Positions 39,585 through 41,006 of a DNA stretch of 64,000 bases are shown here, in pieces. The position numbers and the translations under genes are program-made. The DNA comes from Ostrea edulis (Eukaryota). The first letter of the stretch is position 1, and each line of letters opens with the position of its first letter. The stretch spans positions 82,832,001 through 82,896,000 of the forward strand of contig NC_079170.1 in NCBI RefSeq assembly GCF_947568905.1, in the 5' to 3' direction. The notes beneath the pieces were generated by a model that was not told the DNA's origin, did no database searches, and saw only the letters and a program-made list of their open reading frames with translations.

Positions 39585-41006
39585 TGAGTTGTCTTTCTTG
39601 TCAGTAAAATGAAATTTTGTCTCTCCAGGGATGACAAATTTGCCGTTACATCTTCCCCCCTGAAGATCCTTCCACGATTTTGAGGAAGAGTGGATAAGGC
39701 TTGGAGAGGAATCATATGTGGGAGTCTTTGATTCAGGGTAAATTGATTTTAAATAGCTTATTCTTATTTAAAGCTTGTATATGAAAAAAGCCGTTAAATT
39801 AAGGTAAACAAATATTACAATATTTTGTTAAAAAACATTTTATGCTACAGCAATTCTCCTAAGGACCCCTACGTGCTTGAAAAGGTTCCCACTGGGGGTG
39901 TCAAAAGGAAATTAAGTGAGACAGAGGACTCACTCATTTTGACGCGAAGGTAAATTTTCTTAATGTGTACCATTTAATTAAGTGTGTGTGAGAATTATTT
40001 AGATTTAAAACAGAATTTCTTCCCTAAAGAGCACTCGCCCTTCTTTTTTATCTCCCTGATAATGGTATTTTTCTTTTTAGAAAAATGAGTAAGAGTATGG
40101 GAACGTAATTTACTCAGCAAAAAAATGAAGAAGACGAGATTTTACAGAACTTTCGGTGAGAAGTAATTCATGTATGTTGAATTGAATGGTTGAATGAAAT
40201 GTTTTATTAAAGCCTTTGTCGGAACATAAATTATCATTTATGATTACTTTTACAATTTGAAGTCATTTTTGAAACTAAAAGAAGTAAGTATCTTATAGTT
40301 TACTTGTGTAAACCAGACCTGCAGATGGAGTAGCATTTAAAATGATTTTTTCAAGACATTTTTGTTTTTACATTTATTCCCAAATTTATTTTGTTGTGTT
40401 CATTATTACAGGAAGGAAAATCCTGGCAAATATCAACCATTAGAAAGAAGGACGTTTACGTTGGGATGTAGCTCATCTTCACCAATCTGTATCCCATCCA
40501 GTCCCACATTGCCAATCAGCGCATCGTTTGCTGTTCCATCATGTCCGACACCCGAGTATAATCCGTCATCGCCGATGAGTATCTCATCCAATCCCACATT
40601 GCCAATCAACGTATCGTGTGCTGTTCCATCATGTCCGACACCCGAGTATAGTCCATCATCGCCGATGTGTATCTTATACAGTCCCGCATTACCCATCAAC
40701 GTATCGTGTGCTGTTCCATCATGTCCGACACCCGAGTCCGCGTTGGAATTTCCTCCTAAACCACCAATACTCAACCTTCCGGCACCTGATCACACGTTAA
40801 CACCCCCCAGAAATACATCTGTACCACCAGCAGTCCTATCTGGGAACCCCGCTACTTCTACTCAAACCTTGAGGCAGTATCCGCTTAAAGAGGAGCTAAG
40901 TACATGTTTGGCATTATCAAAAGTATTAAAGACAGCACTGATTATTAAACATAGAGACTTGAGCAAGTCTAGAGACAATCCCACAGAGGAAAATCCAATG
41001 ATATAG
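39585..41006 (+). pseudogene. Cargo gene B: diverged paralogue of cargo gene A with 3 x 30-aa (90-bp) Pro/Ser repeat containing YNPSSP/YSPSSP
   Basis: Exons ~39585-39737 (1-nt frameshift in the C-run at ~39655-39662), 39851-39949, ..40155 (TAA at 40106-40108 where A has W), 40412-41006. Shared motifs with A: LSRD..TSSP.R.F.DFEEEW, KLSE.EDSLI..RR, GNP..Y..LE.RT, TPESA, QYPLK.EL. Confidence 0.7.

What the first reader, a model, noticed from the sequence alone, without database searches (positions are those of the whole stretch)
39585..41006. Second, inverted paralogue at the opposite end, with an independently expanded SP/YSP repeat
Seen: gene B shares motifs and intron phases (2,2,..,2) with gene A but is strongly diverged. 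Its repeat unit is 90 bp (30 aa) rather than 42 bp, yet it still yields YNPSSP, YSPSSP and YSPALP. Both genes point outward toward the TIRs, and B stops ~10 nt from the inner TIR edge. Inference: separate repeat expansion at the same position in both paralogues suggests selection for multivalent Tyr-Ser-Pro motifs. The mirror layout suggests they descend from ancient long inverted arms of which only the tips stay homogenised.
Basis: partly seen in the sequence, partly recalled or inferred. Interest (0 to 1): 0.7.

Follow-up and report, generated by a model that had tools for sequence, protein, structure and literature searches.

The report
Oyster Maverick-end cargo gene pair
A 22-kb piece of oyster DNA with the ends of a virus-like Maverick transposon, but no Maverick core gene found, carries two broken, mirror-image copies of an unnamed spliced gene family whose protein has motifs resembling the tail of RNA polymerase II.

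Summary
Gene B is real and homologous to gene A: three phase-2 introns at matching places, exons alike, introns not, pN/pS 0.44. Both sit inside an element (19198-41101) with Maverick-type AGTAGT ends and a 6-bp target duplication; no Maverick core gene was found inside. B has a frame break and two stops, and has lost its conserved C-terminal helix to a piece of another repeat, so its stop beside the TIR is read-through. The family has about 85 representatives at 50% identity; all named ones are from oysters. Gene models in two other oysters run into the same terminal sequence. A and B belong to separate old lineages (AU p 1e-6). A Y-x-P-x-S-P motif is conserved in the linker (9 of 13), but many relatives have one copy and variation among repeat units looks neutral, so selection for multivalency is not shown. 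Best reading: a Maverick cargo gene family, here on a coreless element, probably with ends from two lineages. Function as a CTD-like nuclear regulator is a guess.

The parts
19192..19197 (.). left copy of the 6-bp target site duplication CATAGG
   Evidence: 2 of 2 other window copies of the host repeat that match the search pattern carry it once
19198..19282 (+). left terminal inverted repeat starting AGTAGT; 27-bp subterminal repeats continue to about 19331
19955..21678 (-). gene A, broken: exons 21678-21580, 21380-21292, 21034-20970, 20822 to about 19955; keeps the C-terminal helix
20139..20769 (-). gene A repeat, 42 bp (14 aa, YSPASPT plus a second heptad), 14 full units; stop in unit 13
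   Evidence: Pfam RNA_pol_Rpb1_R E 1.4e-8
21768..24170 (.). nested insert holding a 166-bp tandem array (oyster Helitron-borne satellite type; family name recalled, not tested)
24171..30810 (.). internal filler: UPF0029/IMPACT-like ORF fragment (24511-25038), retrotransposon-like remnant, several nested repeats; no Maverick core gene found
30811..38420 (+). nested LTR retrotransposon (BEL/Pao-like by recalled layout), open 2051-aa ORF, identical LTRs, flanked by ATATT
39629..39737 (+). gene B exon 1 (acidic-aromatic DFEEEW motif); frame break and stop at 39661-39663
39851..39949 (+). gene B exon 2 (basic KRKLSE motif), open
   Evidence: 86% identical to P0008
40081..40155 (+). gene B exon 3; stop at 40106-40108
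40412..40901 (+). gene B exon 4, part homologous to the family; ends nine residues into the C-terminal helix
40489..40737 (+). gene B repeat, 90 bp (30 aa) x 2.8, with YNPSSP, YSPSSP, YSPALP
40902..40973 (.). piece of an unrelated high-copy repeat in place of B's 3' end (borders approximate)
40974..41101 (-). right subterminal segment and terminal inverted repeat (41020-41101) ending ACTACT; the read-through stop 41004-41006 lies here
   Evidence: 81% identical over 26 codons to the tail of S. echinata model P0019
41102..41107 (.). right copy of the target site duplication CATAGG

Best explanation
B and A are dead copies of a spliced gene family that travels just inside the termini of Maverick/Polinton-ended elements in oysters, as cargo. 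The element here has kept only two ends, each with its cargo gene, and was inserted as one unit by a Maverick-type integrase supplied in trans (inferred from the end motif and the 6-bp duplication); it later collected about 13 kb of nested inserts and both genes decayed. A and B come from two gene lineages older than the split of the oyster genera, and the mirror layout most likely joins the gene-bearing ends of two different Maverick lineages (about 45%, against about 35% for a stable two-armed element). The intact protein (about 190-330 aa) is predicted to be mostly disordered: acidic-aromatic helix, basic patch, short helical motif, Ser/Pro linker with a conserved Y-x-P-x-S-P, and a C-terminal amphipathic helix. 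My best guess at its working (inferred, about 30%): a nuclear regulator whose Pol II CTD-like motif is phosphorylated by or binds host CTD kinases and readers, helping the element to be transcribed. Copy number of the motif drifts by slippage in the tolerant linker. Shown: structure, homology, breaks, TSD, age of the split. Inferred: integrase in trans, origin of the layout, function.
For: AGTAGT//ACTACT ends and perfect 6-bp duplication, empty sites with a single CATAGG, matching the Maverick hallmark in PMC8097293 (passages). No Pfam hit to Maverick core genes in 55 internal frames of 42 aa or more or in the internal ORFs. Of 120 proteins held, one gene model (S. echinata P0019) runs into the same subterminal sequence at E 1e-12 and one (C. 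gigas P0031) into the terminal 15 codons at E 0.001 against the whole window. Near-identical C. virginica loci lie on two different chromosome-scale contigs. Intron-bearing cargo next to a TIR is described for nematode Mavericks (10.1101/2022.07.12.499685, passages). pS 0.83 (saturated), pN 0.36, pN/pS 0.44 (0.30-0.63) on 68 codons. A+B clade rejected, p-AU 1.1e-6, 18 rows x 100 columns; B groups with C. virginica (97/93). Two B-side genes, not an A+B pair, have neighbouring locus numbers on one S. echinata contig. Motif present in 9 of 13 whole linkers (shuffle mean 1.2, max 5) and 23 of 37 linkers of 40 aa or more (mean 2.1, max 8).
Against: No second complete element was seen: no genome was held, so the link of the family to Mavericks rests on this copy and two mis-extended gene models. 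No autonomous Maverick carrying the gene was found (searches gave nothing real). The inverted repeat is short and imperfect (71 of 86) against the 100-1500 bp given in 10.1101/2023.08.22.554363 (passage). Orientation and spacing of the two S. echinata genes are unknown. The codon blocks were picked as the alignable parts, which lowers pN. The motif pattern was chosen after seeing the data, the profile held the motif, and the proteins are related. B's spaced motifs do not match the Pfam CTD repeat. Four of 13 whole linkers lack the motif. The N-terminal tree has few supported branches (2 of 15 starred). Degraded core genes could escape Pfam.
Confidence: 0.7

Rival explanations
1. One reading: one old element family with a gene in each of two long inverted arms; the arms diverged into fixed A (left) and B (right) types and only the tips stay alike. 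Every full copy should carry A plus B.
For: Mirror layout, both genes within about 2.5 kb of an end. Butterfly polintons have ~2-kb TIRs holding genes, two copies per insertion (10.1101/2025.02.07.637071 section 12). C. gigas and Saccostrea hold both heptad-rich and B-like members. An old duplication also predicts the rejected A+B clade.
Against: The family has more than two lineages; the neighbouring S. echinata pair is B plus B-like. No A/B similarity in introns, upstream DNA or 3' flanks. Tips differ at 15 of 86 columns, so they are not freshly homogenised.
Confidence: 0.35
2. The repeats themselves are under selection for multivalent Tyr-Ser-Pro motifs (a phase-separating or decoy CTD mimic).
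For: Independent expansions with units of 7, 14, 18 and 30 aa, each holding the motif (P0024, P0028, P0026, P0075, window A and B); 5 of 41 aligned members match the Pfam CTD repeat.
Against: Relatives with one motif beside expanded ones (6 of 16 whole proteins have one, 2 have none); unit-to-unit changes near the neutral share, although these copies are dead and may have drifted since; linker duplications without the motif exist (P0064, P0019).
Confidence: 0.25
3. The genes are ordinary oyster host genes that a coreless Maverick-ended element captured, with no benefit to the element.
For: Spliceosomal introns, whereas intact Maverick core genes are intronless; RefSeq models with isoforms; other host-like fragments inside the element.
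Against: The same terminal sequence follows family members of two different lineages in two other oyster genera; many divergent paralogues and no match in Pfam, PHROGs, PDB, ESM Atlas or viral folds.
Confidence: 0.15
4. The ends belong to some other DNA transposon superfamily and the Maverick resemblance is chance.
For: Short TIR; no core gene inside.
Against: End motif and duplication length both match the published Maverick pattern.
Confidence: 0.1

Closest known systems
Cargo genes of nematode Mavericks (wasp/wosp proteases, krma kinases; 10.1101/2022.07.12.499685, passages seen)
   Same: Intron-bearing, fast-evolving gene family lying just inside a Maverick TIR.
   Different: No sequence kinship tested or expected; here a disordered non-enzyme protein, a copy at each end, no core genes, and no test of horizontal transfer.
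Maverick/Polinton elements of vertebrates (PMC8097293, passages seen)
   Same: (AGT)2//(ACT)2 ends, 6-bp target duplication.
   Different: No pPolB, integrase, ATPase, protease or capsid gene found; genes have introns; TIR under 100 bp and imperfect.
Butterfly polintons with gene-bearing 2-kb TIRs, and polB-less polintons carrying TE cargo (10.1101/2025.02.07.637071, sections 12 and 13 read)
   Same: Two mirror copies of a gene per insertion; incomplete elements loaded with other TEs.
   Different: There the duplicated genes are core genes inside true TIRs and other core genes remain; here the two copies are 47% identical over the alignable codons and no core gene is seen.
Heteromorphic Mu elements of maize (PMC10401008, abstract and opening seen)
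   Same: Model for a mobile element whose two ends come from divergent clades.
   Different: Other superfamily; analogy only.
RNA polymerase II RPB1 C-terminal domain (Pfam PF05001)
   Same: Y-S-P-x-S-P heptads; gene A's array passes the Pfam cut-off; NCBI names one relative 'RPB1-like'.
   Different: No polymerase domains; B's motifs are 30 aa apart and do not match the model; many members have one motif.

Membership tests
Maverick/Polinton | (AGT)2//(ACT)2 or (AG)3//(CT)3 end motifs | tested here: met
   definition
Maverick/Polinton | 6-bp target site duplication | tested here: met
   CATAGG on both sides; single at empty paralogous sites
Maverick/Polinton | TIRs of 100-1500 bp | tested here: not met
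   86 columns, 71 identical; outer 46 have 43 identical; range
Maverick/Polinton | pPolB and integrase, usually ATPase, protease, capsids, between the TIRs | tested here: not met
   0 of 55 internal frames hit Pfam at E 0.01; the internal ORFs gave only UPF0029 and the CTD repeat; satellite arrays and the LTR element were left out of the scan
Maverick/Polinton | intronless genes | tested here: not met
   three coding introns in each gene
Maverick cargo gene | intron-bearing gene in the few kb inside a TIR | tested here: met
   description
Maverick cargo gene | family members found on complete Mavericks with core genes | not testable with these tools
   no eukaryotic genome held; viral and metagenome scans gave nothing real
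Maverick cargo gene | horizontal transfer between host species | not tested
   no DNA of the relatives available; most have no species label
RPB1 / Pol II CTD | tandem YSPTSPS-type heptads | tested here: inconclusive
   A passes PF05001 (35 bits, cut-off 20.3), B has no hit; 5 of 41 members hit
RPB1 / Pol II CTD | RNA polymerase catalytic domains | tested here: not met
   no such Pfam or PDB match
RPB1 / Pol II CTD | phosphorylation by CTD kinases and binding of CTD readers | not testable with these tools
   needs bench work

The most novel reading that the evidence does not exclude
Oysters carry a family of coreless satellite elements that use Maverick ends and machinery and keep only a pair of spliced genes of their own, encoding a Pol II CTD-mimicking nuclear protein whose motif has multiplied independently in many lineages: a selfish element with its own transcription-machinery decoy.
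Probability: 0.2. Interest if true: 0.8.

Novelty: new variant of a known kind. Interest (0 to 1): 0.5.

Why it matters
Maverick cargo is described in nematodes and insects in the papers I saw; nine literature searches showed no paper on this oyster family, its locus numbers, or a coreless Maverick-ended element with a spliced gene at each end (Repbase and subscription journals were not searchable, and no supplements were read). The family accounts for a set of 'uncharacterized' and 'RPB1-like' oyster gene models as probable mobile-element cargo. If the CTD-like motif proves functional it would be a host-transcription mimic carried by a transposon. The copy in this window is a relic, which limits its own importance.

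Tried and rejected
Terminal-motif scans: L002-L004 share nothing else with the window, chance. The flanking ATPase frame found no viral contig. ESM Atlas: no usable hit for P0026 or P0033. Pfam, PHROGs, PDB sequences: no family for the core protein. Foldseek against viral models: none at E 0.001, on a low-confidence model (pTM 0.29). Complex prediction on two copies of the C-terminal helix: no answer. The look-up of sequencing runs: no RNA holder listed. Earlier scan notes: nothing in 5 look-ups. An upstream coding exon like the N-termini of P0026/P0031 was not found for A or B. One search's codon count used one block in the wrong frame and counted a non-repeat unit; it was redone and only the B-unit counts and unit lists are used. 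Rejected: that B's breaks are assembly errors (contigs identical to the window over exon 1 in X1 and over exon 3 in X1 and X2; one run may be the source sample); that B ends naturally beside the TIR; that the 3' ends of A and B are homologous inside the TIR (428 of 500 shuffles score as high). About 13 of the 98 profile hits looked by eye like unrelated low-complexity or CTD-like proteins and were not counted as members (three long ones were not printed).

Full report
Setting. The window is oyster DNA: every named homologue is from Crassostrea/Magallana, Saccostrea or Ostrea, and four of the 20 runs that hold the stretch are labelled oyster metagenome. No genome was held, so other copies of the element could only be glimpsed through proteins and contigs.

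The element. AGTAGTAAGGG occurs exactly at 19198 (+) and 41101 (-) and once more with a mismatch elsewhere. The ends are inverted repeats, 43 of 46 identical at the tip and 71 of 86 overall, flanked by CATAGG on both sides. The flanks are two halves of a common short repeat; the 2 other window copies that match the search pattern, and loose ends in 4 of 4 laid runs, show a single CATAGG, so this is a true 6-bp target duplication. PMC8097293 (passages) gives (AGT)2//(ACT)2 ends with 6-bp duplications as the commonest vertebrate Maverick pattern and notes that intact Maverick genes lack introns. Of the 21,904 bp about 13,300 are nested inserts (borders approximate), among them an LTR element with an open 2051-aa ORF and 643 of 643 identical LTR columns. 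No Maverick core gene was found in the rest: 0 of 55 frames hit Pfam, and one search gave only a UPF0029 fragment and the CTD repeat. It therefore works like a non-autonomous Maverick derivative but fails membership as an autonomous one.

Gene B and gene A. Exon borders are given under parts. All three coding introns are phase 2 in both genes, and the C. virginica model P0008 is spliced at the same places. Exons 1-3 are alike beyond shuffles (0, 0, 2 of 1000), the introns are not (908, 62, 866 of 1000). Over 68 ungapped codons amino-acid identity is 47%, identity by codon position 0.59, 0.65, 0.41, pS 0.83 (saturated), pN 0.36, pN/pS 0.44 with interval 0.30-0.63 (blocks were chosen as the alignable parts). 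So the paralogy is real and the proteins were constrained for a long time.

Both copies are dead. B has a frame break and a stop in exon 1 and a stop in exon 3; A has two exons out of frame and a stop in its array. Contigs identical to the window cover B's exon 1 in run X1 and exon 3 in X1 and X2; X5 and X6 differ at places other than that stop among the rows shown (68 variant rows were not shown, and a second version a few percent diverged is present in X1, X2, X6, its state at the stops unseen). Relatives and A end in a helix YPLxxELxALxELVxSxRVDLLQTSM; B leaves it after nine residues at 40901. The next 70 bases or so are hit by contigs at summed depth 17,000-167,000, against roughly 15-190 on the gene (summed depth is no copy number, but the step is several hundredfold), so they belong to another repeat. 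B's stop 13 nt from the TIR is thus read-through after loss of the 3' end.

The family. Three word-index searches gave 5, 9 and 6 hits; a profile search gave 98 representatives at E 0.001, about 85 of them members by eye and 51 matching my pattern for the C-terminal helix. No Pfam family other than the CTD repeat (5 of 41), no PHROG, PDB, Atlas or viral-fold match. AlphaFold2 on the shortest whole member gives isolated helices at 16-31, 54-75, 82-106 and 151-184 with a disordered linker (pLDDT 70, pTM 0.29). Two gene models from other genera run on into this element's terminal sequence: S. echinata P0019 (81% over 26 codons to 40973-41050, and to the 27-bp subterminal repeats) and C. gigas P0031 (terminal 15 codons of the left end, E 0.001 against the window) (120 proteins tested, only P0019 passed E 0.02 at the TIRs with standard settings). 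This is the evidence that the gene-beside-end layout is not peculiar to this copy. Whether the family is transcribed was not shown here; RefSeq isoforms and members whose frame runs across all intron positions (P0032, P0033) hint at spliced RNA.

Age and origin of the mirror. In a 30-row tree B groups with C. virginica (97/93) inside a set with S. echinata, C. gigas and C. angulata (83/99), while A groups with unnamed P0033, P0046, P0040, P0057 (80/94) (repeat columns included, bootstrap rough). On the N-terminal part (18 rows, 100 columns) an A+B clade is rejected (p-AU 1.1e-6). A and B therefore split before these oyster genera did. That fits either an old two-armed element or a join of two lineages' ends. 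For the arms: butterfly polintons with gene-bearing 2-kb TIRs (10.1101/2025.02.07.637071, section 12). For mixing: more than two lineages exist, the neighbouring S. echinata models LOC133180114 and 116 are both on the B side (orientation unknown), and B's end shares sequence with the S. echinata end beyond the part it shares with A's end. Maize Mu heteromorphs are an analogy (PMC10401008, abstract). I put mixing at about 45% and fixed arms at about 35%.

The repeats. Expansions holding Y-x-P-x-S/T-P have units of 7 (O. edulis, C. gigas), 14 (A), 18 (S. cucullata) and 30 aa (B). But of 16 whole proteins 6 have one motif and 2 none, among them the nearest relative of A. Differences among units run near the neutral share of 0.71 non-synonymous (A units 4-14: 6, 2 synonymous, 1 stop; B pairs 8:1, 11:5, 8:4), though dead copies drift. 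The single motif does look kept: 9 of 13 whole linkers against a shuffle mean of 1.2, and 23 of 37 longer linkers against 2.1 (pattern chosen afterwards, proteins related, profile held the motif). So a conserved motif is supported and selection on its number is open.

Mechanism. Shown: a spliced, once-constrained gene at each end of a unit that moved with Maverick-type ends. Inferred: integration by a helper Maverick's integrase; later decay. Guessed from anatomy and from general knowledge (recalled, not tested): an acidic-aromatic helix like short activation motifs, a basic nuclear-import-like patch, a CTD-like phospho-motif and an amphipathic C-terminal helix suggest a small nuclear regulator that engages host CTD kinases or readers on the element's behalf (about 30%).

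Comparison and novelty. Closest are nematode Maverick cargo genes, which have introns and lie between a TIR and the integrase (10.1101/2022.07.12.499685, passages), and incomplete insect polintons with TE cargo (section 13). Passages of PMC8502044, PMC10294476, PMC8268682, PMC6431247 and 10.1101/2023.08.22.554363 showed nothing on this family. Nine searches listed no paper on it; Repbase and supplements were not seen and may hold the element. Verdict: observation largely right, gene status wrong, interpretation partly supported; new variant of a known kind; interest 0.5.

Noticed in passing
window 17224-19133: Relic of another Maverick-like element just left of the insertion: an ATPase frame (18669-19133, Pfam Pox_A32 E 0.001, under the cut-off), two further ORFs, and frames that resemble the end of a protein-primed polymerase (recalled; no Pfam hit). 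The host repeat that received the element cuts the ATPase frame.
   Followed up: partly
window 30811-38420: Young LTR retrotransposon (open 2051-aa ORF, identical LTRs). Contigs in X1, X2 and X6 join the stretch at 38421 with 644, 612 and 644 letters that lie elsewhere, about the length of the unique DNA left of the insertion, so it is probably polymorphic (inferred; letters not shown).
   Followed up: partly
window 24511-25038: 175-aa frame with a UPF0029 (IMPACT-like) domain, E 3e-12, inside the element; origin unexplained.
   Followed up: no
window 25376-26230: Frame resembling the C-terminal part of a Gypsy-type integrase followed by a purine tract (recalled pattern; no Pfam or PDB hit).
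   Followed up: partly
window 27103-28990: Fold-back insert with long inverted arms, apparently flanked by a 10-bp duplication GTGAGCTAAT and itself holding a 153-bp tandem array.
   Followed up: no
window 38554-38810 (-): Exon-like stretch with splice-like borders and Cys/His-rich broken frames upstream of B; no Pfam hit; may be captured host DNA.
   Followed up: partly
window 39581-39599 and 21695-21713: A 19-bp stretch about 30-50 nt upstream of the first acceptor is 17 of 19 alike in A and B and is echoed in the predicted N-terminus of S. echinata P0017: a possible conserved intronic or promoter element.
   Followed up: no
window 39746-40409: A second version of B, several percent diverged with indels, appears in contigs of X1, X2 and X6: another allele or locus.
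   Followed up: no
P0019 (S. echinata LOC133180114): This model holds two tandem copies of the C-terminal part including the helix, a linker-region duplication without the Tyr motif.
   Followed up: partly
window 1-1912, 60077-60537, 63490-64000: Further tandem arrays of 18, 32 and 20 bp, unrelated to the finding.
   Followed up: no
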